DNA of 64,000 nt. It comes from Zootoca vivipara (taxonomy: Eukaryota). The notes beneath the pieces were generated by a model that saw only the letters and a program-made list of their open reading frames with translations, did not search any database and was not told the DNA's origin. Position numbers and translations under genes: made by a program. How positions within the stretch are numbered: the stretch's first letter is position 1; the number at the start of each line of letters is the position of its first letter. Positions 16,575-46,600 of the stretch are shown here, one piece after another. The stretch is taken from positions 5,084,001 through 5,148,000 of the forward strand of contig NC_083279.1 in the NCBI RefSeq assembly GCF_963506605.1, given 5' to 3'.

Positions 16575-16625
16575 TGCAGGTCTGGATCTGGTCATGACCT
16601 GGATGGGAGACCAACTAGAAATCCC
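16575..16625 (+). mobile_element. 5S rRNA-derived SINE fragment
   Basis: ctggatgggagacc...gaaatccc resembles the 5S box C region ttggatgggagaccgcctgggaatacc. Confidence 0.45.
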
Positions 16626-16632
16626 ATTCCTC

Positions 16633-17201
16633 AATACCCTCTCTTAGAAGAGCATTCACTTTGGCCCGTAACCGCATAATGCCTTCAGCAGTTCTCCAAG
16701 GGAAGTACAAACGGATCCCTTTATGTGAGAGATGCTGCCTGTGCGGATCAGGAGAAATGGAATCTATCGGCCATATACTTCTGCGATGCTGCTTCTACGA
16801 GGAGGTGCGAGGCGAGCTTATCCACACTATACTGACAGAGCTACCTGGACGCTCGGATAATTTCTATATAGATTGGCTTCTTTCCGACGCTAACTCTAAT
16901 GTGTCAGCGAAGGTAGCCAAATTCTGTGCTAGAGTCATAAAAATTCGGTCTAATCTAATTAGCAGTGTCCAAATATCTTCAGAACATCTTCAGGACTAGC
17001 TAAAGAGGACCCAGTGTTATTAATTGCTGTAATCTACCTCCCTAAGTAGTAACACTCCTTTTAATCAGTTTTCTTTTAAACAATTGTTAAAACCTATATT
17101 TATTGCCTATTTTTAGATTATTACTGTTTTTCTTTCAATGTTTTATGTATTGCATATTTATGTGTGCTGGTCAAGAACCATAATCAATCAATCAATCAAT
17201 C
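16633..17201 (+). mobile_element. RTE-X-like LINE, 5'-truncated, with TSD
   Basis: ORF 16661-16999 with a C-terminal CCHC finger (CLCGSGEMESIGHILLRC); (aatc)n tail; 14-bp TSD aaatcccattcctc at 16619-16632 and 17202-17215. Confidence 0.8.
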
Positions 17202-28497: not shown

Positions 28498-28775
28498 CTA
28501 GAAAGTACAAAATGAGGTAGAATCCAATGGTCAAATGCTCCTCTTTTTGTTAAACACAGGAACTTTCTCTTTTGACATTTGTTCAGCTATTTTTATGCCA
28601 CTTTTCTAGGCAAAAAAGTCATCTCAAGGCAGTTCACCAAAAAAAAAAAAAACCAACACAACAACAACAACCATGGAACAATTTACAAGATAAAACACAG
28701 TGCACCAATGATTTGGAACTGGCACTCAATTTAGCATTGGGCAGCTGCTAATTTAATTCCCTACAATACCCCCTA

Positions 28776-29670
28776 TTGAACCTATCCATTCTGGAGGAAA
28801 TCAGCCCTGAGTGCTCACTGGAAGGACAGATCCTGAAGCTGAGGCTCCAATACTTTGGCCACCTCATGAGAAGAGCAGACTCCCTGGAAAAGACCTTGAT
28901 GTTGGGAAAGATGGAGGGCACAAGGAGAAGGGGATGACAGAGGACGAGATGGTTGGACAGTGTTCTCGAAGCTACGAACATGAGTTTGACCAAACTGCGG
29001 GAGGCAGTGGAAGACAGGAGTGCAAGATTCTGGGGACCACTGCTCAATATGTCCAATATTAAACTGCAAGATGAATTATATTTTAATAGCCCAAAATTGT
29101 GGTTACTTTTTATACCTCATAGTAGCAAAAGCCAAGTCAGTCACTTTATGCCTTTGGCACAAATACCTAATACAGGATGGGGGAAGATTTCATTCACTCT
29201 ATGTTTTGGAAAGAACTTACCAGATTCATACCTCCTGGACCAGGGCCTGAATCAAAATACAGATGAGTAGTCTGCATACTCATCTGTTTTTCATACTCCA
29301 GCACTTATGGTGCTGGAGGAGACTATTGAGAGTCCCATGGACTGCAAGAAGATCAAACCTATCCATTCTCAAGGAAATCAGCCCTGAATGCTCACTGGAA
29401 GGACAGATCCTGAAGCTGAAGTTTCCAATACTTTGGCCACCTCATGAGAAGAGCAGACTCCCTGGAAAAGACCCTGATGTTGGGAAAGATGGAAGGCACA
29501 AGGAGAAGGGGATGACAGAGGACGAGATGGTTGGACAGTGTTCTCGAAGCTACGAACATGAGTTTGACCAAACTGCGGGAGGCAGTGGAGTGCCTGGACA
29601 GGAGTGCCTGGCGTGCCATGGTTCATGGGGTCACGAAGAGTCAGACACGACTAAACGACTAAACAACAAC
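28776..29670 (+). mobile_element. Composite BovB: BovB fragment + captured unique DNA (29022-29304) + mosaic BovB 3' end
   Basis: 13-bp TSD acaatacccccta at 28763-28775 and 29671-29683 brackets the whole unit; BovB RT C-terminal translation; (caa)n tail. Confidence 0.9.
29022..29425 (+). repeat. Dispersed duplication of 44652-45055 (offset 15,630 bp)
   Basis: Only 3 mismatches over the 283-bp non-BovB part; also shares BovB variants gactattgag, ctcaagg and ctgaatgc. Confidence 0.95.
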
Positions 29671-32499
29671 ACAATACCCCCTACTTAACCTTGCTTTGAG
29701 GCACTATGGGAAATGTAATGGCAGCCACTCACTGCTGACTAGTGTGCTGTTGTGCCACCACTCACGTCCAGGTCAAGATACTCATAGACAGGGCCCCACC
29801 AGAGAGTGAACTATCAAATGCCCACTGAAACTTGCAGTTGCCTCTGTAGGTAGTGACATGCTCAAGCAATGAGAAGACACAATGAAGAATCATGTCTTCC
29901 TGAAGAATAAACACTTAGAGCTGAAAAAAGAAGAGGAATAGTAATGTCCCCACATACACCCTTCCACAGCAAGAGGCTTTTGGCAGCATCTATGGATGCT
30001 GAGTGGTGCCAGATAACTCAGTTCCTACAATGTCAGCATTAGGAGAAGCCATTATGAGATCAACAGAACTAGGAAGGAGCAGCAGGCTTAACTCTTGTTA
30101 TTTGTGCACAGGAGCCAAATCACCAATTGTCAAATAACTAAATAAAAATAAAAATGCAAACTAGTTGTTGAGTGTTAAGGAACAATGTGTGCGTTAGTAT
30201 TCTGTGTTTACTTTCAAGCACCATGTTGAACCTTTTTATTATCAAAATAACTCCCATGTTTCCCAGTCCCATAATTACAAGGCCTTTTCCTATGCTTTCT
30301 TTTTCTTCTTTTTTTCTTTTCCTTTTGCAATTAATGAGCTTTCTCAAGGTCAACTGAAGGGAGTCTTCATTCATTAATTTTCACCAGCAGCTTGAGGCCT
30401 CCCTTCCACCACATATTTTTCATCTGTAGATGGGGGAGTCACAAGGTCCTTTTTAATAATCACAGCATCTCAGGAGGATGCAAGCAGGAAGAGCACCAAG
30501 GACTCACCGATGCTCAGTTAACTGCTCAAACTCTTCAGCCATGCAGTTATTAAAACTTTAGGGTTCAATGATCCATTGGTTGGGAGATCTATACTCTCCA
30601 CCTCTGTGTTATGCAGAAAGTGCCTGGTGTCATACCAGAGCACAATTGATTTAGGGAGAAAGGGAAAATTAGCTGAAGAATGTGTTGGAGTTCTAACTTG
30701 TTAATGAGCTTAGGGAATGATTCATGCTTCTGCAGTGTTCAGTGCTGCTGGAAATTACGTGAAATGAGACACATACTCATAAATGATCTATTGTGGATGT
30801 CTGCAGGATGAGCACCTGACCTGTCCCTTTCATTTTTGCAGAGCTGTAAGAATTTCAGCAGATGCAACTTTTCTCCTCCTTGCATGATAAGCAACTCACA
30901 CTTCACACTTGCATGACATCACAATTCACACTTGACATGATTATTAAACAGAACCCCCTTCCCCGTTTTGCTTCTGATCACCCTAAAAAGCACAGGGCCA
31001 GATTCAAACTCAAGTGAGATTCCTTAATTTACCGGCCCTGGGAGCATGATGAAGCTGTGGTGCAATGGCTATATCACGCTCCCATCACACTCCCATCTGA
31101 TCAGCAACTAAATGCTGAATGAAGCTGTTTGCTAAACAATATGTAAGAATGCTCCAAACTGGAAAAAACTGCTAAGACATTGAAACTATACAGACATAGT
31201 TGATATGTAGCCTCTGGGGCTGGGAAGGCACAGCTTTTCTTTATTATTAATAATAATTCAATGTGTTTCTCCCCCTAATTAAATATGACACTAGGAGACT
31301 AACATACACAACTTTACGAATCCATCAAGTTCAACAATACAACAGCAATACCACAATAGCAACAGCAACACGGAAACAGCAGTAATTGTGATTAAAAATA
31401 TCGAGATCCTGCTATTCAATTGTTTTGTGTGGATAAAGTGCTATGGAGAGTGAATGCCAAACTGCTCATAGGTGAGAGAATCCCATTTTCTTTTTTCTTA
31501 TCAAATTTTTATTGAACTCACAGCTTACCTTCTCTCTTCTCATACATCCTGTCGCAAAACTCCAAATGACAGCTTCTCACAGCCAGGAGATGTCCCAACA
31601 GGGCCCTGGCCCTCTACCACTCCAAGGAAGGCTAGGAAAAAAGCAAAGCAACTCATGTCAACTTACAGAAAATAACTTGCATGGTGTTGGGTAAAAATTG
31701 CTGTATTAAAAAAGCAACAAGCAAACGCTAAGCACCCTCCTGCATATTTTGGTGAGTCTACAGATTCCAACCTTTATAATGGCATTTCTGAGGGGGAAAG
31801 AACGGTTCATCATTCTACCAGTTGTTCTGTGAGCAGCTTTTCTTTTTGTGTGTGCATCTGAACAATGTGGCTTTTAAAATGCAAATAAGGTTCCAACAGT
31901 TTCCTGAGAAATCTTCTCAGGCAATGGACTATGTTATGAATATGAAACTTTTTCTGCTGCAGCAGTTCCAGCTGTGAGAGAAACTGTGGCTCCCAGATTT
32001 CCAAAACTTGTTTGTATATTTCCTTTGCAGGCCAAGGGAGATGGATGGGGCCCCTTCTCTTCAAGGACAGGCATTCAAATTTAAAATAGGGGTGCTTGAG
32101 GATCTCATTTGATCCGAACCAACTTGATCCACACTTTTCAGACAAATACGTCAATTGGAACACTGTTGTCTGCCAGTTTTTTCACATCTCCAAATGTTGT
32201 GATACAATTCTCAGCTCAGAATAATAATATTAAAATGCATATTTGAATAAAAATGTGTGTTTTGTGAGAAATGTAGTGAAAACTAATATAAATTTTCAAG
32301 CGGGACTTTTTTAAAAACATAGATTGAAATAGGCTGATCCACCCATCTCTAATTGAGGAAAGAGGAAAAATGACTAAGACAGAGAGAAGATTGCAAAGGT
32401 TTATGAAATGACACTGTGGAAGGAAAACCTTCCCTTCGATCACCAAATGTCAGTTTTGGGAGGTACCTGTCAGGGAGTTGTTGCAGCTACTCCCGAGTA

Positions 32500-33740
32500 A
32501 AGACGCTCCAGTCCGTTTTCCCAAAAACTAAACTCTATTTTATAACCATCACATAATAAACTCTATCCTAAATTGCTCATTTTTCTATGCTGTCCTCTTT
32601 CTTGTTATTTCTCCTTTATTTTCGCTTCCCACACCTCCCATCTCATCCATCCCTGTGCCTCTCCCTGCCACCAGGAGTCCCCAGGGTGAATAAAGACAGG
32701 TGGAAATAGTCCTTTTCCCAGTTGGGCCTCTCCCCACCTCCCCAATCCCAAAACACCGCCCCTCCCCCCTGCCACCAAAATGTTCCAAGATGCAAGAGAT
32801 GAACAGAGGCGAAAGATTGCCCAACTATCCAAAAATAACTGTACCTCTTCCCTAATTCCTATTCTTAATATTACCATTTCTATATCTATATCTAATTTCA
32901 ATCAAATTAATCTTAACTTTCCTTCCCTAGCCTAAATTCACTTCCAAAAATATCCATAGGTCCAAAAATTTCATTATTTTCAAATAACTTTAATACTTTT
33001 TATCAACTATACTACCTTTTCTTCACACTGGTCTCGGGGTCTCCCATTTGGCTCGGCGAGTTCCATAAACACAGCCCAATTTCAAACCAATTTTATCCAT
33101 TCAGTAAAAGAAACAACACTTTGCCCTTTTCACTCCACTCCCAATCTAACATGTTTTAAGACCCAAAATTCCTTCTTCCCTGCTGCCTCCCTAATTCCAT
33201 CAAGTCTCTAGCTTGTCAATCTCTGATTATTGCACCATTGCATCTTCTTTGTGCTCTCTGTTCTTTGCAGGAATTCTGTTCCATAAATAGGTCTTGTTCT
33301 CCCATCTCTGAGAGAGCAATGTTCCATGGCAGATCTTGGTAAGGTTCTCTTTCTTTTACCTGTGGGTATCCTCCTCACCCTAATACAGAGGACATTAAAA
33401 AAAAAAAGGAAAACAGCTTAAACAAAAATAAAATCAACCAAGACACAAAGAGTCGGTTGAAGAGAGGGATTTGGCAACCCTCTCTGTAATGTAAGATAAA
33501 AAGATATTTACAAGTGAGGAAGGAATGTTGGAGTAATATTGATATAAACAAGCAAAAATGGAAACTGTGATCTGAAATGAAGAAAGGAGGAAGAGGGGAA
33601 GAATGTTCTTCTTCCAATCCAGTATAACAATTTTATATCCAAGGTTTCCTTACTTATTGTGTGTTCATTAATTCATACCCAATCCCATTTCCTGTTTTTT
33701 ATTATTATTATTATTTTATTTTATTTATTAAATTTATATA
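32500..33740 (-). mobile_element. L1-derived fragments (3' UTR and internal pieces)
   Basis: C/T-rich strand bias and T-rich tails typical of antisense lizard L1; no intact ORF. Confidence 0.45.
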
Positions 33741-33855
33741 CAGTCATACCTCATGTTACATCCGCTGCGGGTTACGTCCTTTCGGGTTGCGCTCCGTGCC
33801 GAACCTGAAAGTACCGGAAGGGGTTACTTCTGGGTTCGGCGCACGCGCAAAAGCT
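33741..33855. mobile_element. Truncated Tigger-like MITE (one end)
   Basis: ta|cagtcatacctc TIR; CpG-rich ccggaag/ggttac repeats; second TIR absent. Confidence 0.65.
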
Positions 33856-34283
33856 GGATGGTAGGAAAACTTGCAGTGGCAGACTCTTCAGATGAGTTTA
33901 TCAGAAACTTGCCACAGGAAGCTCATCGTTCCCTATGACATTTTTTATAACAGTATCCAGCTCTAGCCAAGTATACAGAGGCTGTTTCAGTATTTCCAAA
34001 CTTCAAAAAGTAGCACTTTCCATTTGAGTTACCAGCAAAGCATCAGATGTATTTCAACTTTCTTTTGAATCAATTGACCTTCCCCTGTGGGAGACAACTG
34101 TGGGAAGGTAGGGAGTTGAACTTTCCCTTACTCTTTGTGATTCAGCCAGCTCTGTTCTTCAATCTTGTAACAGCCTTTCTTTCCTTCTATTATTACCATC
34201 CTCTTTTTTTATTATTCAAATTCTTTACACCATTATACAGTGAACCTCACAATGAAAAATCCACTGAAGGGGTGTGGGTGTGG

Positions 34284-34286
<3 letters not shown>

Positions 34287-34334
<48 letters not shown>
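34287..34334. repeat. (AT)n microsatellite
   Basis: about 24 AT units. Confidence 0.98.
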
Positions 34335-34337
<3 letters not shown>

Positions 34338-36405
34338 CTAGCATGTTAGTGCTACTCTAAAACTCATCCTTATCTAGGCATCAGATGCATTAAGAAGTGC
34401 CTTATTTAAATGGTAATAACCACATAATGCAGGTCTCATTTTATTATGAAGCAAAACCCTCCCTGGAGATAAGCCTACCATATAGTGAAGTATATGTTCC
34501 TATTTCACAATAAAGATGGTTTTAAATATCATAGTCCAAGTAGTGCAATTGAAGGATGCTATCATAGTGTCCTCTCTGGGGCTATTTTGCACCACCAATT
34601 TATGATGGCAGGGGAAACCAAGATCCTTTGATCTGCCAAGCCAAGGGAGATTTTTTTATATATCCTTGAAAGATAACTGGCACTCTGATCTTAAATGTGC
34701 TTTCTTGGAATCAATCCCATTGATTTCACAGCAAACTGGAGCAGTGGTAAAACTACTCACAATTTGTTGGTGTTAACATTTTTAGCAATGCTGAAAAATG
34801 ATTTGTCTCTTTTGATAATTTTTAGCAGTCCTTGTGAATAACATGGCCTCCTTTGTTCATTGCTTGCCCTCGTTTGCTATTCAGTGATATCAGTATGCAG
34901 CTAAATCAGACTCATAATATCATTGTGTTGCATTAAGACATGATCATATTGTTCACTAAATGATCCCTGATTGGTGGGATCTCCCCACCAATGAAGGAGG
35001 AAATAGAAGTGTCCAGAGGATTCAATTATGCTGACCAATACCAGGGTCGGAGTAATGCCCATGTTTAGATGGTGAGAAATGTCTGCTCAATCAAAATTGC
35101 TTATTTGCACTCCAGATTTGAATATGACAAATATCTGGTACCACCCTAAATTCAACTGATTTGACTGTCTCATTCCATTTCATACTTTTGAATGCTTCTA
35201 AGCTATCCACCTTATTTACTCAATTTATTACTTATTCCACTGGTGTGTGAGAATTTTGGAGGTCAACTACACTGTTCTGCCTACCTGTTATTAGTTCCCA
35301 TGTCTGCTTTTTGATTCAAATTCTGTATGTGCAAAGTTTGTTTGTTTCGTTGATGCATTTAGTCATGTGATCCCCACTTGTAGTCAGAAATGGTAACTGT
35401 CTGAAAACAGTTTTAGCAAGATTTAAGGACCTGTGGCAGCCATGACCTATCTGCAAATAGATTAGCCTCTCTTCCAAACATCTTGTGTAACTTTTGTAGC
35501 CTTGTCAAGGCTTTCATATATGTTCCTGAAGAGCTAGGCTGCAGAGTGTGTTTCGGTACGGTACTTTGAGTTAGCACTGCATGAATGCAAGCATTGGGAA
35601 TTACCAGAAAGACACGAACCAGTCAATAAATTATGGAAACATTTTTATAGTCTGAATGCTTTGGCATGGCAGTATGCCCTATAGGCCTATTTTTGACAGG
35701 TATATGTACAGTTGATGCAAGTGACAATATTCTGTAATTTATGTCTACTTTGTCAATGGTCCATAGGCGATTTGTGATTAAAACATTGCTTTATAATATT
35801 GGGCTGGGTGAAATAAACTACTATTTTAAAAGTTTACAGCAATCCAAAGATGTAAAAATAAAAACACACCCTGGATACACAGACGTATGACATTCACACA
35901 GAGACACTTGTACACATACATAAATCCTCATGAGCTTGTGGCTTAAAGCTCTGTTTGGCAACAAATTGGGAAGCTTGGGAATACACAAATAAAATTGACT
36001 GGAGGGACAGGATATTTTTGGTAAAACATCTGTCAATTGCATGAATGAGATGGTAGGGGAATCTGGCCAGATGGATCCCAACAGCACGCTTTTGTTCTGT
36101 GAAATAGCAGGGGGTGGAATTACACAAATATTTCTTTAATTTATTTTCCCTCTTTGCAAATTCCCCAGCTCTACATTTATCTTCCCAAGCAAGAAAAAGA
36201 ATACATTTTAAAAAATAATCTTCAAGAATACAAAAGGCAAGTTACATACTGAGCTTTGAGTGGAAAAGAAAGTGAACCAAATAGTACTATCTTTGACAGT
36301 TTTGTGATGCCAAGTAGTTGTGTATTAATCTCTTCCTATGATGGTATGTCATGAAGCACTTAGTATCATGGAGTGGTGTAGCAACAATGTTCTTAGTTCA
36401 TTTCA

Positions 36406-36848
36406 TTGGCATCTGTATGTCTTGAGAGACAATGGAAAAGTGTGTCTTTGGCGGTGCAGTCAAACTGCTGGAGAGTAACAGCATCTGCTGTAGCTGTAGA
36501 GACCAATATGGGAGAGACATGTTTTATTGCAGCTGGGGCAGATGAAGGTGCCCCGTTTTGCTGTTGCAGATGCATCATGGTGTTTCTTTTCCCAGTGGTC
36601 ATTTCTCCTCCTGTCACTGCTGTGGATAGGCAAACTGTCTGTCTCTAGGCATTGCAGTTGGCAACAGATTCTCACATGGTGGGGTTAATGTTGCCAACCT
36701 TCATGTGTCACGTTTGGAGACATCTTTATAATGCAGAGTTAGTCTGCTAACCAGCCTGGTGCCGAAGGCCAATTCCCCATAAAGCACATCCTTGGGGGGT
36801 CCTGCCATCTTTCATTCTATGCACATGACCAAGCCAGTGTAGACGTCA
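36406..36848 (-). mobile_element. RTE-clade LINE 3' fragment (same family as 26764-27073)
   Basis: Minus-strand RLHWLGHVHRMKDGRTPKDVLYGELA...YKDVSKRDMKVG...FICPSCNKTCLSHIGLYSYSRCC. Confidence 0.88.
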
Positions 36849-36899
36849 GTTGTGTGATACTCCCCTCCTCCCCCAACACAGGAGGGCATCCCCATAGAG

Positions 36900-37146
36900 C
36901 AGGGTTCAGCAAGGTTTATCTTGCCTGGGCCGGATCGGTCCTGCAGAGATCCCTCGTGGGCCGGATCGCACTCCTGCCCACGATTTTTGGCATCTGCTTC
37001 TGCCATGCTGGAAGTGAGTCCCCATGCCATGCTGTTTTAGCACAGCGTGCGAGCGGGCAGCTCAGTTCGGGGGCAGCTCATGGGCCAGTCAAACTTCCAG
37101 CCCATGGGCCACTTCCAGCCCATGGGCCTTAGGTTGCTGACCCCTG
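36900..37146. mobile_element. hAT-like non-autonomous element
   Basis: Ends cagggttcagcaa / ttgctgacccctg; internal gggccggatc repeats; 18-bp tandem duplication; TSD not evident. Confidence 0.65.
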
Positions 37147-38009
37147 CTAGTTGAGTCTATCTCCCACTGGCCATTACTAATCAAGAAAAGCCCTTCCAGG
37201 GCCCATCTTATGAACAACATGTGCAAAGATGCTTGATGGAATTGGCTGCTGTGTCTATTCTGGAAGGGTGCTGCCTACTCCCTTGACTGGCAGGAGCTGG
37301 GGGCATTCCTGGGGGCATAAGGCAATCACAGAGTACTAAATGGGTTACTTGAATGGTCATGACTCATGCTATAAAATCTAATGCTTTGATGTGTTTAGTC
37401 TCCTGTCCCATCACGTCCCCCTGAGATTGGAATGAAGGAACATGCTGGAAAATCACAACCAACTCTGTAATCCTATGGCTTTCCTAGGGTCATAGGATGT
37501 ATTGAAGTTCCCTTTTCAAAGGTCAGAGAGAGCGCCCTAACCTTTCTATGGCCCTTCTATGACACTGATGTCAGAGTGTCACTGTTGCTAGGGCTGAAAA
37601 GAGAGGGTCACACATTCCCAGTTCACCAGCACCCTTCCAAAACAAAGAATAATCTATGCCAGAGCTGGACTAGCTTTGTTCCCTCCACCTCCTCCTCCTT
37701 ATTCCAATGGAAGGAAATGGAAGGGTTTTTTTTTAAGGGGACACTATAGAGCTGGGCAAGAGCCTCGCCTACCAGTGGGATTCCAGAAAAACACTGGATT
37801 TGGTTCCCACCTTGCCTTAGGGTCACAGTTTTCATTTTATGATCAGACAGCTTCCTACTCACCCACTAGCATTTAGTTTTTTCCCTCCCAAGCATTCTTT
37901 AAAAAGTGTATTTTGTGGGGTGGGAGAGGCAGACGTAGGATTTATATGAATGCTTTCTGAAAAAATTGGGGGGCGGGAAAGCCCCCAGTCCCTTTCTGCC
38001 TAATGTCAC

Positions 38010-38112
38010 TGCACTCTCAGTCCCATCAGTTCCAGCATGCATGGCCAATAGTCAGGGATAATGGGAGTTCTAGTCCTGCTTCTTCTTGAGGGCCTCATGT
38101 TCTCCAGCACTG
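38010..38112. mobile_element. Old URR1-like hAT MITE remnant
   Basis: cccatcag...catggccaatagtcagggataatgggagttctagtcc...gagggcc. Confidence 0.55.
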
Positions 38113-40082
38113 GCTTGCGGCACAGATGAAAAGAGACGCACTGATATGTCTTGGGAAAACAAGAGGGGAAGATTAATAATGCCTTTTGTGGAAATATCAA
38201 GGTCCCCAAGTAAAAACCTGGTCCAATATAACTTCCACCCCCCCCCCAAAAAAAACACTTTTACTTGCGTACTTTTCTTTTTGTTTACTTTTCTACACTT
38301 TTCCATAGGTCAGGGCCTCCAAAGTTACAGCTGTCATTTGTTGTTTTATTTATTTGTTTCTGGATATTTTACCCCAAATACATTTTCCTTTATTTGGTGG
38401 CAGAAATCTATTCACCACTGGGTAATTCATTTCCTGTCTCTTGGGAATGCCTCCTTTGGGGTTTATTGCACCTCTGCAATTAAGTGTCCAGGCCAGGTTC
38501 CATATCAATCCAGTGTTTTATCCTTGTGCTTTTAATTATCAGTCGACACAGCAACATAAATCTTCGAGGACTGAGAAGTAAAAAGGAGCCAATGAACATA
38601 TCTTATGTCTGTCTGCCAGCAACAGAATCTTTAAAAAAATGATTTTTAACCTGAGAAAGCCCTAATAGACCTGTAGAACATTTTGTTAAGCAAACCTTGG
38701 AACTCTTCCTGAATATTTTCTCCCTTTTAAATACTTTGAGCTTTTGGCACCTTTAGAGAATGATCCAATCATTTGCCGGAAAAAAAAATTGTATTGATCC
38801 CTTTCAGTTAGTGTTTTACTGTTTTAAATTTATAAACCACACAGAGGACAACTTTGGTTGGGTGGTATATAAATGCTATAAAGAAACAATTGTCCCAGTT
38901 TTAAATGTGGTGTAAATTCGGTGTCAAGAATAGCCACATGGGAGTGTCTCCATTAAAATATTTTCCTGCTGTCCCCTCAGGATGTAGAACTGATGCAAAA
39001 TGTGATAATTACAGACTTTTTAGTTTCTGAGAAGCCAATGCGTATATGTACCCCCTGGCCTTCTTGAGTGTTGGGAAGATGCCCCCTTTCCAGCGAGGTC
39101 TTCTACCAGAGCCGACATAGCAACAGGAGTGGATAGATGGCATGACTTGCTCCCCACACCACTAAGCACAGCATGTTCCAGGAAAGTTCTGCCTACATAT
39201 TCCAACAGAGCAAATCATTATTGATCATACAAAAATTTGGCCAACATCACCCTCACTTCTAAGATTATCCACCAGCAACATTATTCACTTATGAAGTCTC
39301 CAAAATGTCTTAAGTGTGAATACACATGAAAAAGTAGGGGAAGAGGAAAACAAGTACTGCAACAGCGACACCTTTTCAAGATAAATGAGGGGGTCAGGTT
39401 GGTCTTCCACTTGCCAAGGTGGCTCCTCCTGAGAAGCTGGAAGTGCAGTGGTCACCATTTGGATCACCTTTGCCTTGTCTGTTCAACCTCATCCATGGGT
39501 CAAAGTTGCTTGTTTCAAACAAACCACAGTTAACATTCATCACAGTTAATCACAGGACAATTGTGGTTATGCAAGAGAAGAATGTACATTTTAAAAATTC
39601 CTCCTCGTTGAATTTCTCCATAGATAAAGATATGCACCCCAAGTGCTACAAACCTGAAGCCATTTTTGCACATTACTTGTTAGCATCTCCCATGATGCAT
39701 ACAGTTATCTTTAACTTGCAGACATGTATGTCTTCTTCATTTGAGCCTTCTCCCCAGATATCCTTTTCTACCACCAAATCCTCTTGTATCATGGAGTAAA
39801 TAAATAAAAATATCAGTTTTACTCAATGTGATTCTTTTCCCCGACACAAGATCAAATACCCAGAGGCCCCAAAGACATGAATATGAAAGCTGGCTGCAAC
39901 AGATCTGCTTAAGAACCAGAAACAGATAAAAAGCTTCTACAGCTTGTCTGCTCTGTAGAACAGTTGTTATTGTTAAGCACAAAAAAACTATAGAAAAATG
40001 TGACTGCTCAGGGGACCAGAGTAAGGATAGACACATTTCTTCCCCCTTCCTGGTGACCAGTTCAAATGCAGTTCAGCTAAAT

Positions 40083-40480
40083 CAGGGGTCAGCAACCTAA
40101 GGCCCATGGGCCACAGACATCCCATGGGGGTCATTTTTCCAGCCCATGAGCCACCCTCGAACCAAGCCGCCCACTCGCCGAGTCCCCACGCGCGTTGGGA
40201 ATAAACCACAGGAGTGCGTGCTCATGCACGCCCACAATCCAGCCTACAGAGGGGGCTCTGCGGCAGTGAACCAGCCCAGGTAAGGTAAGCCTTGCTGTCC
40301 CCTGAGCTAAATGCTGAATGGAAGCTGTGCATGTACTCTGCTTGTAGGGCAGCAGAAAGCAGGAGCGGGGCACCTTCATATGTTGCTAAACTGCAATTCA
40401 CATCCCCCCAACCATTCACCGCTTGTTGGGGGCAATGAGGGATCCACCAACATATGGAGGGCCACAAGTTCCTCAACCCT
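40083..40480. mobile_element. hAT-like element(s) related to 36900-37146
   Basis: Starts caggggtcagcaacctaaggcccatgggc, the reverse complement of the end at 37146; ends ggagggccacaagttcctcaaccct. Confidence 0.55.
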
Positions 40481-41942
40481 AAAGAATGGCCTAGATGATG
40501 AGATGGAATTATAGCAGTCTTAGACCAAATTACATCGTTGGTCTAGCTAAATGCCTTTTTACTGGAGATGCCATGTTATGCCACATGGGGCATTCTGCAT
40601 GAAAAGTGCTGTCACGCAGCTGTGGCCCATCCACCTTATAAGAGGGAAACATCCATCTTTCAAGAGCTAACATTGAGCTAAGGTACACCTTGGTTTGGTA
40701 CTTTCAGAAATCTGCCTGCTGATTTTTATCAGCATAAACAAACTTCCTTGAATCCTTCATCTCTATTATTCTTCTCCATCTGTTTCTGAAAGACTTTATT
40801 AGTCACATACAAGAACAATTGTCCGCCTTGTAAACATTGCATTGTGGAAGATTGGTACATGCAACACCTTTCCTCTTGGAGAGTGGTGTGGGAGAACAGG
40901 CACTGAGTACCCCTCAGAGTCCCAACCTTCCTGCAGGTCTTTGGAGGAGAGCTGGTGCATTCCTTGCTCTTTTAAGGAACACCAGAGGTCCGTCCACACT
41001 TCTGCTTGTGTCATCCAAGAGGTTTCAGCTTGACACACACTTTCTACACAGAGGTCCAAGTGGTCGTCCCCTTGAGGGAAAACCTGCTCTTTAGCAATAG
41101 ATGGAAAAATTCAGGGAAAACCTGAATTGCCGGTTGTTCCAATTGAGCACTAAAGAGCAGTTTTCCCTGGGAGGAAAATAGCAGGGCAAGGGGAAGCATG
41201 GCTAAGCCCTGAGACTCAGCTCATAATTGGCTCCCCACTTCTGCACTGCACATCCTTGTCTCTGTAGCAAACTAAATTAGTCCTCTGACTCACTGCAGCT
41301 GGCGGCTCTGTTCAACACAGGTCTCCAGCCTTTCTCCAATATGTTTCCACTGCTGGTCATGCTGTGGCATAGATAAATAACATTTGCTCCTTGTATATGC
41401 CAGGCATGGGGGAAGAAGGTGACTCACTAGCTCCATGCAATGCTACTTCCAGCCCTGCTATGTTTAAGTCTGGTTGGCGCTTCAGGGGAATCAGCACCAG
41501 CTGCCTTCTATCTCCCACAGGACTGTGAGTCTTGAAACATGTATTCTGCTCACTTGAATACTTGAATACTTTCATTGGATGTGTGACTCATATGTTATCG
41601 TTGTGGAATTCTGGTTCAATTAGTACTGGTTACATCTGCAAACAGGCACCATACAAGTCAGACAACCCATGTTATTATTTCTAGAGCTGGGCTGAAACTC
41701 TGTTCCTGGTTCCAGACTAACTTTGGCCTCTCCTATGATCCCTTGCCTCCCTTTACCTCTAGCCTACCTTGCTGTCATTATCCCCACAAACTTTGACCAG
41801 AGTCTGGGGTGCCAGTTTGCCTCATGAGGGGCAGATAAATTTGAACTATAGGCAGCTGGCATAATTTTTGCTGGTGTAAATTTTACTGTGTAACATACCC
41901 CTGTTTCAGAGTGGGGCTTCTGCTGGCTGAGCAATTCTTTAA

Positions 41943-42019
41943 TGCACACGAAAGCTCATACCAAAATAAAAACTTAGTTGGTCTTTAAGGTGCTACTGAA
42001 GGAATTTTTTTTTATTTTC
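41943..42019 (+). mobile_element. Penelope-like element terminal fragment
   Basis: cacgaaagctcatacc...aacttagttggtctttaaggtgctactg, a motif typical of squamate PLE ends. Confidence 0.7.
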
Positions 42020-44908
42020 TTTAAAAGAGAGTTTGACTTATACCACTCTTTTTGCCGGGTTACTAGGACATGTGACCGAGGTGAATAGAGTTTGGAATAG
42101 GGGTTAACTTTCCCCTGCCCCATCCCTCCATACCCTCAGAATACCCCTTTTCTGGGACTTACCCTGACATGGGAGACTTGTTGGCATATCTCTTGCTGAG
42201 TCAGGATGAAGGACTTCAGTTGGCAAAGTCCAGAATGTGCCTATTCCAAATCTGCTCATCTCAGTGGATCATGGGCTTGGATGGCTCCCTCAGAGACTTT
42301 AGTGTCTGTGTGATCTAATGTAGATCATTGTTTGTTGAAAGACTTCTGGAAGCATAGCCCTTATTTTTTCCAAGGTTTAAGTGGTATTAGCTTAGGACTC
42401 ATTCATACACTGAATATCTGAACAGCAAAACACATATCTGAGAGTGAGAAAGGAGTTTCTCTATTCTGTTTGGCAGGAATTCCCTTCTCACATATTAGAA
42501 TATCACCCCTGTAGACTACTTATGCAAGCTGTTAAATATGCAAATAGAAGCTAAGTACAACAAACTAATTGATCCTTGCATGGTATACAACTCGGCAAAG
42601 AATTATTTAAGCTCTGATTCCGTTGCATGTTCCATTGATTGCTGTGGGTGATGTTCAGGGAATGCAAGTTTTAGCTGAAATGGCCCCACATGTAAATCGA
42701 TTTTCTTTCCCCCCCGTCTTTAGTAGTGGCAAAAGGAATCCAATACTTTAAGATCAAAAACAACTGTTTATTGGTCCTTATAGATTTAACAGAGCAAGCC
42801 TCCCAGTTCAGCTGCTAAATTGTGGCTGTAATGTCTTTCTGACTTTTGCTAAGAGGAAATCATAACTCCCCGAGACAAACATGAGTTGAAGGCCATGTTT
42901 ACAAATTAGACTGAATTAGTTTTGTTCGATATTTTCAAATTTAAAAAATGACAACAAGCACACAAGAGCCTTCAAAATGTGATGTAAATAAATCAAATGT
43001 ATCAACTAGTCAGCATCCATCTAAAACTACATCTTAAATAAAATAATATTGGCTGGTCCTGAGAAGATACAGCGCCCCTTGCAAGGGATTACCTTGTGGG
43101 CAAATCCCTGCAAAACTTGCATTAGTTTAGGTAAATTCCTAATGTAAAGGCCTGTTCTACTAAAGCGGGTGGAAGTGAATGCATAATGGGGATTCCTGAG
43201 GCTGCCTCACTTTAATGCATGTCTAAATGCAATGTAATTCATATGCATTCTAACACGCAAACACTGTTCAGATTAAACCCACTTCATATATTTACCTGCC
43301 AGCAAGCCCCCTCCAGTGGCAATGCATATGGTGTTAATGTCAAATGTGTGTACACTGAGGAATTTTGGAACAATTAGGGTTTTCAACTGTGAAGGAAAAC
43401 TCTATGCACCAACATTTGCATGTGGGTAGGGCCCGTTCCTATCAACTTAAGGTTACCTGGAGCATTGCCACTGGTCGCATTGGTGTTCAGGGTTGTGGGC
43501 AGCAAACCAGGTCCTGCATCCTTTCACATGGGCAGTGGGAAACTTGGTCTACTGCCTTTAACCCCCAAGCCTACCTTGCATTGAACATTGAGTTTGAGAT
43601 GCTGTCCCTTGGATGCCTCTCCAGACAAACAAAACCTTTGCTACTTCACTGATTGTGTGTGAGAGAAGTATGTAAGTGGCTTCCATCTGCAAAAGGGTCC
43701 TTCAATATCAAACATCAGGTGCACAAAATTTATGGCCTATGAAATTCAGTCCACCAACCATGTATTTTGGCAACTGAGATGTTTGACAACCCCCTCCCCC
43801 ACTTCCATTCCCCAGGTGCTCAGCTGCAATATGTGTAAACAGAAACAAATTAGGAGATTTATGTGGTCAATAGACCCATACAACATAGATCTGTTTGAAC
43901 ACATAATAAAGAACTCTTGGATATTTTAAAAACTTGTCCCTGGTATAATATGAGTCATTCTGTTGGTTTTTTTTTTTGCTTTGTGTTTAATTTCCAGGTC
44001 CTTTGCATCATAAAATCTGATCAGAATGTAGCATGAATTATTTGGACTATTTGTATTCATGGCTTCCTTCCCCTCCACATATTCACATTATATCTTTATT
44101 GTGAATATTCATAATAGTTTTCTGTGCAGACTTGGTATCCTCATCAAAACAAAGTTAATTCATTTCTACATACTATGGCCTGATAAAATAATCATGACAA
44201 GGCTTTGCTTTCCAACATTCCAGAGGACTGAATGCTTCATTATAGACATTGCAACTGTCTATGCTGTTTTTATTATTAATGCAGTCAGCTGCTACTCTTG
44301 GAGGCTGGAGCATCATATTACGAGGCATGGAGATTGCTAACCTGGGTTCAAAATCAGAGAACAAATATACAGGCTTGTATTTCTCTAGTTTGCAAAAGTC
44401 TAACTTAAAGACAGTAACTCACTCCAAAATAAATCCTTGAAAGTTGATCCACAGTTTCTTTGCTTTTCAGATAATGTCATTGGAAATCATGGTTGAAGTA
44501 ACATGATATGAGGGGCGAACCCTCTGTCCACCACACACGCAGATTTGGGAAGAATCTTGAAGGGAGCTGGGAGATAGAATAGTTGAAAGGAATGGGAAAA
44601 CATTCGAGCTGGGTTTCCATTTCAGATTTCAGTTGTGGGAAGAGCTTGTAAGCAAGATTCTGGGGCCCACTGCTCAATATGTCCAATATTAAACTGCAAG
44701 ATGAATTATATTTTAAAAGCCCAAAATTGTGGTTACTTTTTATACCTCATAGTAGCAAAAGCCAAGTCAGTCACTTTATGCCTTTGGCACAAATACCTAA
44801 TACAGGATGGGGGAAGATTTCATTCACTCTATGTTTTGGAAAGAACTTACCAGATTCATACCTCCTGGACCAGGGCCTGAATCAAAATACAGATGAGTAG
44901 TCTGCATA

Positions 44909-45297
44909 CTCATTTGTTTTTCATACTCCAGCACTTATGGTGCTGGAGGAGACTATTGAGAGTCTCATGGACTGCAAGAAGATCAAACCTATCCATTCTC
45001 AAGGAAATCAGCCCTGAATGCTCACTGGAAGGACAGATCCTGAAGCTGAGGTTCCAATACTTTGGCCACCTCATGAGAAGAGCAGACTCCCTGGAAAAGA
45101 CCCTGATGTTGGGAAAGATGGAGGGCACAAGGAGAAGGGGATGACAGAGGACGAGATGGTTGGACAGTGTTCTTGAAGCCACCAACATGAGTCTGACCAA
45201 ATTGCAGGAGGCAGTGGAAGACAGGAGTGCCTGGTGTGCTATGGTCCATGGGGTCACGAAGAGTTGGACACGACTAAACGACTAAACAACAACAACA
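44909..45297 (+). mobile_element. BovB LINE, 5'-truncated, with a 26-nt junction filler (donor of the duplication)
   Basis: LWCWRRLLRVSWTARRSNLSILKEISPECSLEG...; (caa)n tail; probable TSD agtctgcata (44899-44908) / agtttgcata (45298-45307). Confidence 0.9.
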
Positions 45298-45311
45298 AGT
45301 TTGCATATATA

Positions 45312-46600
45312 GGGGAAAGTGGGGCATGTTGAGCCATTTTTTACTTTAAGCTCTACACACCTCAAAATAATGCACATAAAAGAAAACTTTTGACTTTAAC
45401 ATTTATTAGGTACTATTCTAAACAAAATCAAAGGATTAATGTTTCACATTTGATGGAATAAAATGACAATAAAAAATCACATTTAAGTTTTCAAAAAAAA
45501 AAATGGATCAATGTGCCCCAGTAGTGGGGCACATTGATCCTTCATTTGGGGCACATTGGACCATTCAAATTTAAGAGCAAAGAAGGCATTTTTACTACAC
45601 AGTATAAACTTCCAAAAGAGTTGCAAAAATATCTCAAAGTTCTTAAGAGTCAGCATCACTTCAACTTGTCACTCCAGTTGCCTTGGCGAGATCCAAAACT
45701 TCAGTAGAGATGTGGCTGCCATGGTTATCTAGAATCAGAAGCACTGGGTGATCTTTGGAACTTTTAGAGTATTTGATGAAATGGTTCATCCATCGAATAA
45801 AATTATCAGCTGTCATCCATCCACTGGGATGTTCAACACCAATGTAGTCTTTTGGACCATTTTTTATCATATAATCTTTGAAATGCACCCTTGGAAATAT
45901 GAAAAGTGGAGGAATGCTGTTTCCCAATGCATTTATACATGCACACATTGTCAAAAAAGTTCCCGTTCTGCTGATGTCATTCGGCCAACTTGCTTTGCAC
46001 CTTTCACAGCAATGATTTTTGATGGTTTCTGCACTGTGGTTACACCAGTTTCATCTACATTGTATATATCAGCTGCTGAGAAATTACTTCTTTCTAGAAT
46101 GAAGTGGAGTTCATCAGATAACTCATTTACGTTAACACTGTTGAAGCTTGTTGCTCTTGACAAACTTGTTGCCTGTGGAATGCGAAGTGACAGTAAAGCA
46201 GAATGACATTTCATAAATCCTTCTGCCCAATCTAAGCCAGCCTTTTCATTTTTCTCCCAAGTTGGTGGCATTTGAATTTTATTCTTACTACCAAACTGAT
46301 GTGCCAGTTGTCTTGCTGCATTTTTTGAAAGTCCATAATGAAGTCGTGAAGCTTGTTGCAAGTAATCCACCAGACATATACATTTATTAATTTACACATT
46401 TGAAGAATTGTAAACTAACAGAATATAACACAAAAACTAATAAACTATGAATGATATTTTCCATGGGGTACATTGATCCATGCTCAATGTACCCCATTTC
46501 CAATTGGATCATTGTGCCCCACATCACCACTTAAGACATAAATCTATTTTAAGCAAAACAGGCTGGCAGCCATTACAAATATTTTAGAACATACTACAGC
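45312..46600 (-). mobile_element. pogo/Fot1-like (Tc1/mariner superfamily) DNA transposon, deleted and missing one TIR
   Basis: ta|ggggaaagtggggca terminus; subterminal ggggcacattgatcc repeats near both ends (45505-45562, 46464-46520); transposase remnant inside. Confidence 0.85.
45661..46370 (-). pseudogene. pogo/Fot1-like DDE transposase pseudogene (CENP-B-type HTH + DDE_1)
   Basis: AGLDWAEGFMKCH..LSLRIPQATSLSRA, IYNVDETG (first catalytic D), GWMTADNF, LLILDNHGSH (second D); frameshift near 45951; truncated before the QPLD motif. Confidence 0.88.

What the first reader, a model, noticed from the sequence alone, without database searches (positions are those of the whole stretch)
28763..29683. 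One BovB captured unique DNA from another BovB locus 15.6 kb away and became a mosaic
Seen: a single 13-bp TSD (acaatacccccta) brackets BovB-A1 (28776-29023), a 283-bp non-BovB segment X (29022-29304) and BovB-A2. X and the 5' part of A2 match 44652-45055, with 3 mismatches in X. A2 shares variants with that donor (gactattgag, ctcaagg, ctgaatgc, gttcc) up to ~29425. By ~29545 it carries A1-type bases (ttctcgaagctacgaacatgagtttg) instead of the donor's (tcttgaagccaccaacatgagtctg). The A1/X junction has a 2-nt GC microhomology. Copy A contains the donor's left TSD (agtctgcata) and junction filler but not its right TSD, so copying ran from 44.6 kb to 29.0 kb. Inference: a DNA-level template switch (MMBIR/FoSTeS or SDSA) left A by microhomology and returned through BovB homology. 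Dispersed BovB copies would then act as landing pads that duplicate neighbouring unique DNA without retrotransposition. An RNA-level alternative is an RT template switch on a read-through transcript.
Basis: partly seen in the sequence, partly recalled or inferred. Interest (0 to 1): 0.7.

Follow-up and report, generated by a model that had tools for sequence, protein, structure and literature searches.

The report
Repair-copied DNA patch inside a BovB
In what is likely a lizard genome, about half a kilobase of DNA from 15.6 kb away sits copied inside a jumping-gene fragment, likely pasted in when a DNA break was mended on a neighbouring copy of the same element; it is a neat example of a known kind of repair scar, not a new system.

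Summary
The anatomy is real in the assembly: one 13-bp TSD brackets BovB-A1, X and BovB-A2. X has 2 hits in the genome and carries the donor's left TSD and filler, so copying ran from 44.6 kb to 29.0 kb. Raw reads of one other run span the BovB|X junction. Reads do not test the second (donor-to-A) junction.

The product is a miniature direct DUP-NML-DUP: 402-523 bp of donor inserted with about 50-180 bp of A duplicated. A 15.6-kb deletion plus unequal BovB crossover gives the same sequence (0.2), and that run's reads fit a deletion allele. RNA templating 0.13; assembly chimera 0.08.

New details: A1 shares a 0.2%-frequency base with the donor, and A2 has a micro-slip beside the break position. 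The 'landing pad' generalisation is unsupported: no second BovB composite among 146 other hits in 1.6 Mb, though one MITE composite has the same topology. Known class: repair-mediated duplications (Pace 2009) and Alu-junction DUP-NML-DUP. The scan noted a similar lizard patch before (e1-9517305).

The parts
28763..28775 (+). Left copy of the 13-bp target-site duplication of the original BovB-type insertion A
   Evidence: exact match to 29671-29683; the left-flank/A junction is also in run X15 contigs (record 2)
28776..29023 (+). A1: 5'-truncated BovB-type LINE fragment cut about 65 bp before its 3' end; its last ~50-180 bp are repeated in A2 (long target duplication)
28846..28966 (+). 121-bp tract of A1 nearly identical to the donor (1 difference), including the rare C at 28876; implies an extra A-donor or A1-A2 conversion
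29022..29023 (+). Junction 1 (BovB|X), 2-nt GC microhomology
   Evidence: spanned by 3 raw reads of run X20
29024..29268 (+). Copied unique DNA (left flank of the donor BovB)
   Evidence: 2 matches in the genome; differences at 29036 and 29087
29269..29278 (+). Copy of the donor's left TSD
   Evidence: equals 44899-44908
29279..29304 (+). Copy of the donor's 26-nt 5' junction filler, whose start is an inverted copy of the flank just upstream; copy A keeps the base that matches the flank (29284)
29305..29423 (+). Donor-type 5' part of A2; private two-change cluster at 29420-29422
29424..29550 (+). Junction 2: interval holding the donor-to-A switch (not resolvable further; not tested by reads)
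29551..29670 (+). Non-donor 3' part of A2 with the (CAA)n tail, taken as the original 3' end of A
   Evidence: the tail/right-flank junction is also in X15 and X19 contigs (records 8 and 16)
29590..29596 (+). Local forward-and-back slip (7 bases in place of 1), about 10-18 nt before the position equivalent to junction 1
   Evidence: 1 exact match in the genome
29671..29683 (+). Right copy of the 13-bp TSD of A
29684..44651 (.). Single-copy middle segment (15.0 kb) now flanked by the direct repeats X + donor 5' part; no protein family at Pfam cut-off, no Rfam match
44652..44934 (+). Native (donor) copy of X, with the donor's left TSD at 44899-44908 and filler
   Evidence: continuous with its own left flank in contigs of X1, X16, X17
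44935..45297 (+). Donor BovB-type fragment D, complete 3' end
45298..45307 (+). Right TSD of D (9 of 10 match), not copied

Best explanation
A 402-523-bp stretch (unique DNA plus the 5' part of BovB copy D) is copied from 15.6 kb downstream into BovB copy A, with about 50-180 bp of A repeated on both sides, likely in one DNA break-repair or fork-restart event. Shown: the structure, the direction D to A, two copies of X, and junction 1 in reads of another run. The scar has no sign of a function. It leaves direct repeats around a 15-kb segment, which would make that segment deletable.
For: Donor is the nearest other same-strand BovB: +16.2 kb, next +18.3 kb, upstream -42.9 kb (partial) and -53.8 kb, out of at least 11,558 exact-motif copies. 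A diffusing RNA would not favour it. The insert has no poly(A) or (CAA)n tail of its own and its right end lies inside D. One junction is a chimeric repeat and the other is non-homologous, as in the direct DUP-NML-DUP of BAB8923 (PMC6902434 section 17) and in HR ended by microhomology joining (PMC5104497 abstract and passages). Private errors sit at both likely priming sites: 29420-29422 at the left edge of the switch interval, and a slip unique in the genome 10-18 nt from the break-equivalent position. A1 and D share a base found in 23 exact matches (3 are A1, A2, D) against 11,535 for the majority base; the other carriers are not one subfamily. So A and D, or A1 and A2, did exchange DNA. A MITE, which has no RNA stage (established knowledge), shows the same repeat-unique-repeat topology with a donor 33 kb away.
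Against: The sequence cannot tell one event from two, nor the order of the switches. The shared rare base in A1 needs an extra conversion under the simplest version. In run X20 all 3 informative fragments are copy-A type, none is donor type, and 29711-30100 has no depth. A crude, post-hoc Poisson model favours a homozygous 15.6-kb deletion over a homozygous insertion by 17-48 fold (about 1x depth, fragment counts inferred from depth steps). The microhomology is chance-level (16%). 15.6 kb exceeds the 5-kb range that Pace et al. call confidently repair-mediated, and the target duplication exceeds their 4-21 nt. Long target duplications also flank ordinary retro-insertions nearby (72 and 171 bp), which fits reverse-transcriptase geometry.
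Confidence: 0.55

Rival explanations
1. Two ordinary events. A 15.6-kb microhomology deletion joined A1 to X, giving L-A1-X-D. An unequal crossover between that D and A on an intact homologue then restored the middle segment. The reverse order (tandem duplication by A/D crossover, then deletion of most of one copy) gives the same sequence.
For: Reproduces every base of the structure (sequence logic). With A1 and D only 283 bp apart on the deletion chromosome, conversion would explain the shared rare base. The 3 of 283 differences between X copies are in the range of allelic difference (X15 differs from the assembly at 6 of 454 flank bases). X20's reads fit a deletion allele better than the assembled allele.
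Against: Needs two rare events at one locus. It does not explain the slip beside the break-equivalent position in A2. A deletion allele could equally arise later, by collapse between the direct repeats. The X20 signal rests on 3 fragments and one empty 390-bp stretch (chance about 0.13).
Confidence: 0.2
2. RNA-templated insertion. A LINE endonuclease made staggered nicks in A. The exposed BovB end primed reverse transcription internally on a read-through transcript of X-D, and the cDNA was joined at the 2-nt microhomology, leaving a long target duplication.
For: Same polarity and product as the DNA model. The copied length is like that of truncated BovB copies here. Retro-insertions with 72- and 171-bp target duplications lie within 150 kb.
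Against: The donor is the nearest same-strand copy in cis among more than 11,000. There is no tail at the insert's 3' end. I have no evidence that X-D is transcribed: no RNA run was examined and no exon was found. It does not explain the A1/D shared base.
Confidence: 0.13
3. Assembly chimera at junction 2. The sequenced animal carries a deletion haplotype (L-A1-X-D) and an intact one, and the assembler crossed between them inside the BovB identity tract.
For: Only junction 1 is confirmed by reads. X20 fits a deletion allele. Contigs of 4 other samples show X joined only to the donor flank (X15; X1, X16, X17).
Against: The window has no N and lies in a 102-Mb contig. The composite is about 900 bp, which long reads would span (the sequencing method is not known to me). 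X21 shows both bases at 29284 (2 of 3 reads copy-A type) and has depth on the right flank, which fits two X copies, though also a plain SNP. Contigs drop variants and cannot show absence.
Confidence: 0.08
4. A distinct composite retroposon family, or X native at 29 kb.
For: None found.
Against: X has 2 matches in the genome. X carries D's TSD and filler, and contigs of X1, X16 and X17 show it continuous with D's flank.
Confidence: 0.01

Closest known systems
Repair-mediated duplications (RDs) in interrupted TEs, Pace, Sen, Batzer and Feschotte 2009 (PMC2671141; abstract and parts 1-5 of 8 read)
   Same: A TE is interrupted by 50 bp or more of DNA found once elsewhere on the same chromosome; no poly(A); microhomology; size within their maximum of 619 bp; donor and acceptor can be told apart; SDSA-type model.
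   Different: The donor is 15.6 kb away (their confident class is under 5 kb). The target duplication is about 50-180 bp (theirs 4-21 nt). Part of a same-family repeat is copied with the unique DNA, a case their pipeline states it excluded. No squamate is in their species table.
Direct DUP-NML-DUP with one Alu-Alu junction (BAB8923, PMC6902434 section 17); Alu-mediated insertional duplication 24 kb from source (PMC13041450 section 19)
   Same: Two junctions, forward and back, in direct orientation; one is a chimeric repeat, the other non-homologous in BAB8923; a normal-copy segment lies between the two duplicated pieces.
   Different: Far smaller here (0.05-0.5 kb pieces, 15 kb spacer). The repeat is a BovB-type LINE. 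Both target breakpoints lie inside one element, so its TSD brackets the whole. It is an old variant with about 1% divergence between copies, not a disease allele.
[quoted passage not shown]
   Same: Homology-primed synthesis runs beyond the homology and is closed by microhomology joining, with small template slips near the junction.
   Different: Those are reporter experiments in mammalian cells; here the template is an ectopic, about 95% identical repeat in a natural germline.
Class 2 templated sequence insertion polymorphisms (PMC5110952; part 1 of 4 read)
   Same: A DNA patch from elsewhere at a break, with microhomology and no poly(A).
   Different: Those donors are distant and placed seemingly at random; here the donor is the nearest same-strand repeat and one junction is homologous.

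Membership tests
Repair-mediated duplication (Pace 2009) | TE interrupted by 50 bp or more of non-TE DNA found at only one other place | tested here: met
   X has 2 matches in the genome
Repair-mediated duplication (Pace 2009) | No poly(A/T) tract; microhomology, filler or small deletion at the breakpoints | tested here: met
   no tail; 2-nt microhomology
Repair-mediated duplication (Pace 2009) | Donor within 5 kb (their confident class) | tested here: not met
   15,630 bp; falls in their 'distant' group, part of which they regard as true RDs
Repair-mediated duplication (Pace 2009) | Target duplication absent or 4-21 nt | tested here: not met
   about 50-180 bp of A is repeated
Repair-mediated duplication (Pace 2009) | Empty site at the orthologous locus | tested here: inconclusive
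   X15 contigs hold both outer junctions of A and show X only on a contig that runs on into other sequence, but contigs cannot show absence; no relative species was laid
Direct DUP-NML-DUP with a chimeric-repeat junction | Two directly oriented duplicated segments around a single-copy segment, made by a forward and a backward junction | tested here: met
   in the assembly
Direct DUP-NML-DUP with a chimeric-repeat junction | One junction is a chimeric repeat of two directly oriented copies | tested here: met
   A2 is donor-type to 29423 and non-donor from 29551, ending in A's TSD
Direct DUP-NML-DUP with a chimeric-repeat junction | Both junctions on one molecule | not testable with these tools
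   no long reads among the runs laid; only junction 1 is read-supported
Direct DUP-NML-DUP with a chimeric-repeat junction | Both junctions formed in one replicative event | not testable with these tools
   one-step and two-step routes give the same sequence
LINE-mediated transduction or TPRT chimera | Own 3' tail and short TSD around the copied DNA | tested here: not met
   the insert ends inside D; the only tail and short TSD belong to A
LINE-mediated transduction or TPRT chimera | Donor transcribed through X on the plus strand | not tested
BovB (RTE-clade LINE) | Non-LTR reverse transcriptase in longer copies of the same repeat | tested here: met
   RVT_1, E 3.5e-11, in L051
BovB (RTE-clade LINE) | Placement in the BovB clade against a reference set | not testable with these tools

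The most novel reading that the evidence does not exclude
Abundant young repeats in lizards prime a class of local DNA capture that the classic survey excluded by design. A broken repeat invades its nearest same-strand sibling, copies past it into unique DNA and leaves a long target duplication. The new direct repeats then let the locus switch between simple, insertion and 15-kb deletion alleles, and this locus may still carry all three, including a deletion restored by unequal crossover. The MITE composite on C1 would be a second member.
Probability: 0.2. Interest if true: 0.55.

Novelty: new member of a known kind. Interest (0 to 1): 0.3.

Why it matters
As it stands it is one well-resolved scar with no sign of function. 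It extends repeat-junction DUP-NML-DUP and repair-mediated duplication to a BovB-type LINE in a likely squamate germline, and its base-level markers allow an unusually direct test of mechanism (two single bases in non-carriers separate three histories). It would matter more if a genome-wide scan showed such repeat-primed captures to be common, because the 2009 survey excluded cases that copy part of a repeat, or if a 15-kb deletion allele is shown to segregate here.

Tried and rejected
X as a high-copy or composite retroposon: rejected. The shared rare base as a subfamily mark: rejected; of the 20 carriers outside the window, 19 could be tabulated (L033 dropped, not recovered by my script) and they differ at the other diagnostic sites, and one close pair is a segmental duplication. 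General conversion among neighbouring BovBs: no clear excess of shared rare bases (3 observed, 1.7 expected under 20 kb; 44 doubletons, 72 copies); the shared base of A1 and D is one of the 3. Contig depth as a copy-number test: rejected, because depth is a mean over the whole 2.3-3.7-kb contig. Host-gene context: Pfam scans of 81 of 88 frames of 90 aa or more and of 137 of 162 shorter frames gave only TE domains and sub-threshold hits; one weak hit at 28554-28748 had no PDB support; Rfam gave 0 matches. Short exons could be missed. A genome-wide pattern search for paired BovB motifs could not be run, so the frequency estimate rests on 1.66 Mb, part of it chosen for BovB density. The protein atlas gave no answer. 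Richardson 1998, Richardson and Jasin 2000 and Tremblay 2000 were not held. Ten literature searches listed no paper whose title or opening abstract describes a BovB composite of this form; I read none of the supplements, where individual cases may be listed.
Full report
Observation. The window is gap-free and lies at G000:C4:5084001-5148000 of a 1.44-Gb assembly. Its repeats look squamate (labels recalled; earlier notes on this genome call it a lizard). One exact 13-bp TSD (28763-28775, 29671-29683) brackets A1 (28776-29023), X (29022-29304) and A2 (29305-29670). X differs from 44652-44934 at 3 of 283 places and includes the donor D's left TSD and 26-nt filler, while A2 ends in A's TSD. X has 2 matches genome-wide. 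The direction D to A is therefore fixed by the sequence. A longer copy of the repeat encodes a reverse transcriptase; the name BovB itself I could not test against a library.

Mosaic map. Against 59-75 unselected copies per site, A2 carries rare D bases at 29325, 29370, 29388 and 29423 (0 of 59, 1 of 63, 1 of 65, 1 of 69). From 29551 it carries a three-site haplotype shared with A1, but that haplotype is the commonest one (38 of 73; D's is 4 of 73), so it shows 'not D' only. Between these, A1 and A2 each differ from D at 1 of 121 places. None of 65 unselected copies comes within 1 difference of D there, and 43 of 2080 random pairs are that close; 1 of 18 copies picked for the rare base is. The switch thus lies in 29424-29550. 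The insert is 402-523 bp and about 50-180 bp of A is present twice. In rearrangement terms this is a miniature direct DUP-NML-DUP: a forward junction (BovB|X, 2-nt microhomology, chance level 16%) and a backward junction (chimeric BovB).

A1, A2 and D share a C at 28876/29454/45083. The motif with this base has 23 exact matches in the genome, 3 of them these copies, against 11,535 for the majority base. The other carriers are heterogeneous, and neighbouring copies show no clear general excess of shared rare bases. So an extra conversion links A1 to D or to A2. Three histories fit and make different predictions for chromosomes without X (see next steps). A2 also has a private two-change cluster at 29420-29422, at the left edge of the switch interval, and a forward-and-back slip at 29590-29596 that is unique in the genome and lies 10-18 nt from the position equivalent to junction 1.

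Reads. In run X20 (raw reads, about 1x), 3 reads with 3 starts, probably 2 fragments, match 29000-29021 and continue into X. They carry the copy-A base at 29087 and the donor base at 29036. Junction 1 is therefore real outside the assembly, on 22 BovB-side bases within the laid stretch; the reads do not say which BovB copy that side is. Contigs of X1, X16 and X17 show X joined only to D's flank. X15 shows X on one 3.7-kb contig together with both outer junctions of A. X19 has no depth on X. Contigs cannot show absence, so I cannot say whether the insertion is polymorphic or fixed. X21 has both bases at 29284 (2 of 3 reads copy-A type). Against my preferred reading: in X20 none of 3 informative fragments is donor type and 29711-30100 has no depth; a crude post-hoc model favours a homozygous deletion of the middle segment over the assembled allele by 17-48 fold. 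Junction 2 was not tested by any read.

Mechanism. D is the nearest other same-strand BovB among more than 11,000 exact-motif copies, which points to a DNA template in cis. The simplest route is homology first: A's right-hand end pairs with D in the identity tract, synthesis runs leftward through D's 5' end into unique DNA, and the strand is joined to A's left end at two shared bases. This is inference; it matches HR terminated by microhomology joining (PMC5104497, abstract and passages). A deletion plus an unequal A/D crossover gives the same sequence in two steps, explains the shared rare base, and fits X20. An RNA template primed by BovB homology has the same polarity, and long target duplications do flank retro-insertions nearby (72 and 171 bp), but it leaves the cis donor unexplained. 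Odds: one DNA event 0.55, two steps 0.2, RNA 0.13, chimera 0.08.

Generality. In 1.664 Mb of contiguous stretches (C4, C1, C19; the first C1 stretches were picked where exact motif hits were dense, the C19 stretch around an earlier hit) there are 151 BovB 3' hits, 129 with a 3' end. Five hits are in the window. Of the other 146, none forms a BovB-unique-BovB composite with a donor in the sample. Six interrupted copies hold five repeats and one GC-rich, partly unique insert with no partner in the sample. This bounds the rate at roughly 2% of copies and does not support frequent landing pads. One composite of the same topology was found with a MITE: a 342-bp element, 370 bp copied from 33 kb away, then 196 bp of the element's 3' part again, with a 2-nt microhomology (C1:4827010-4827912). 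No MITE abuts its donor in this assembly, so repeat priming is not shown there; transposon-end joining as in maize composite insertions (PMC4270019, abstract only) is an alternative.

Known classes. Pace et al. 2009 (PMC2671141; abstract and parts 1-5 of 8; lead from note e1-9517305) found 824 proximal repair-mediated duplications in human by looking for interrupted TEs, and found them in other vertebrates. This case meets their core criteria but not the 5-kb and short-TSD ranges, and it copies part of a repeat, which their pipeline excluded. It works like an RD and is not filed as a member of their confident class. It does meet the topology of direct DUP-NML-DUP with a chimeric-repeat junction (PMC6902434 section 17 and passages; PMC13041450 section 19 and passages). 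I also saw passages of PMC5120786, PMC7615360, PMC4888836 and PMC13320814 and part 1 of 4 of PMC5110952; no supplements were read. Ten searches listed no BovB case of this form, which is weak evidence of absence.

Verdict. A real, well-marked local duplication and a new member of a known kind; interest 0.3. The boldest reading left open, a repeat-primed capture class with a segregating 15-kb deletion allele, has probability about 0.2 and would deserve about 0.55.

Noticed in passing
L149 6,010-7,920 region (G000:C1:4827010-4827912); partner L153 (C1:4860597-4861337): MITE - 370 bp of unique DNA copied from 33 kb away - 196-bp repeat of the MITE's 3' part, within one TA target site; same topology as the finding. 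The partner copy has since taken a LINE fragment.
   Followed up: partly
L065 (G000:C4:4968648-4969124): SINE-like insertion flanked by an exact 72-bp direct duplication.
   Followed up: partly
L075 (G000:C4:5065317-5066100): LINE-like fragment with an (AAT)n tail flanked by a 171-bp direct duplication, 97.7% identical.
   Followed up: partly
L086 (G000:C4:5239521-5245824) and L089/L090 (C4:5277789-5283601): Two 99.9% identical 5.8-kb elements with about 430-bp long terminal repeats, 38 kb apart. One has a 5-bp TSD; the other lacks its first 2 bases and is flanked by an exact 248-bp duplication. Described only.
   Followed up: partly
window 29252-29293 and 44882-44923: D's 5' filler begins with an inverted copy of the flank just upstream of its TSD, forming an imperfect hairpin; copy A keeps the matching base at 29284, while the assembly's D and X15 have the changed base.
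   Followed up: partly
window 29022-29334, run X15: X15's contig has only 2 differences from copy A where donor-type contigs have 3; either a donor allele sharing a copy-A base or a collapsed mix of two copies. The second difference was not shown.
   Followed up: no
L035/L036 (G000:C2:32253727 and 32280850): Local segmental duplication, at least 2 kb at 99.85%, 27 kb apart.
   Followed up: no
L115/L131 (G000:C1:2580217-2580891 and 2746259-2746933): 675-bp inverted duplicate, 99.3% identical, 166 kb apart, partly unique DNA.
   Followed up: no
L122 (G000:C1:2656315-2657125): BovB-type copy in which 5'-region sequence appears joined directly to the 3' end, a possible internally deleted form.
   Followed up: no
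window 45664-46050 (-) and 16619-16996 (+): DDE transposase remnant beside D (DDE_1, E 4.7e-08) and a zf-RVT LINE remnant with a 96% partner 123 kb away.
   Followed up: no
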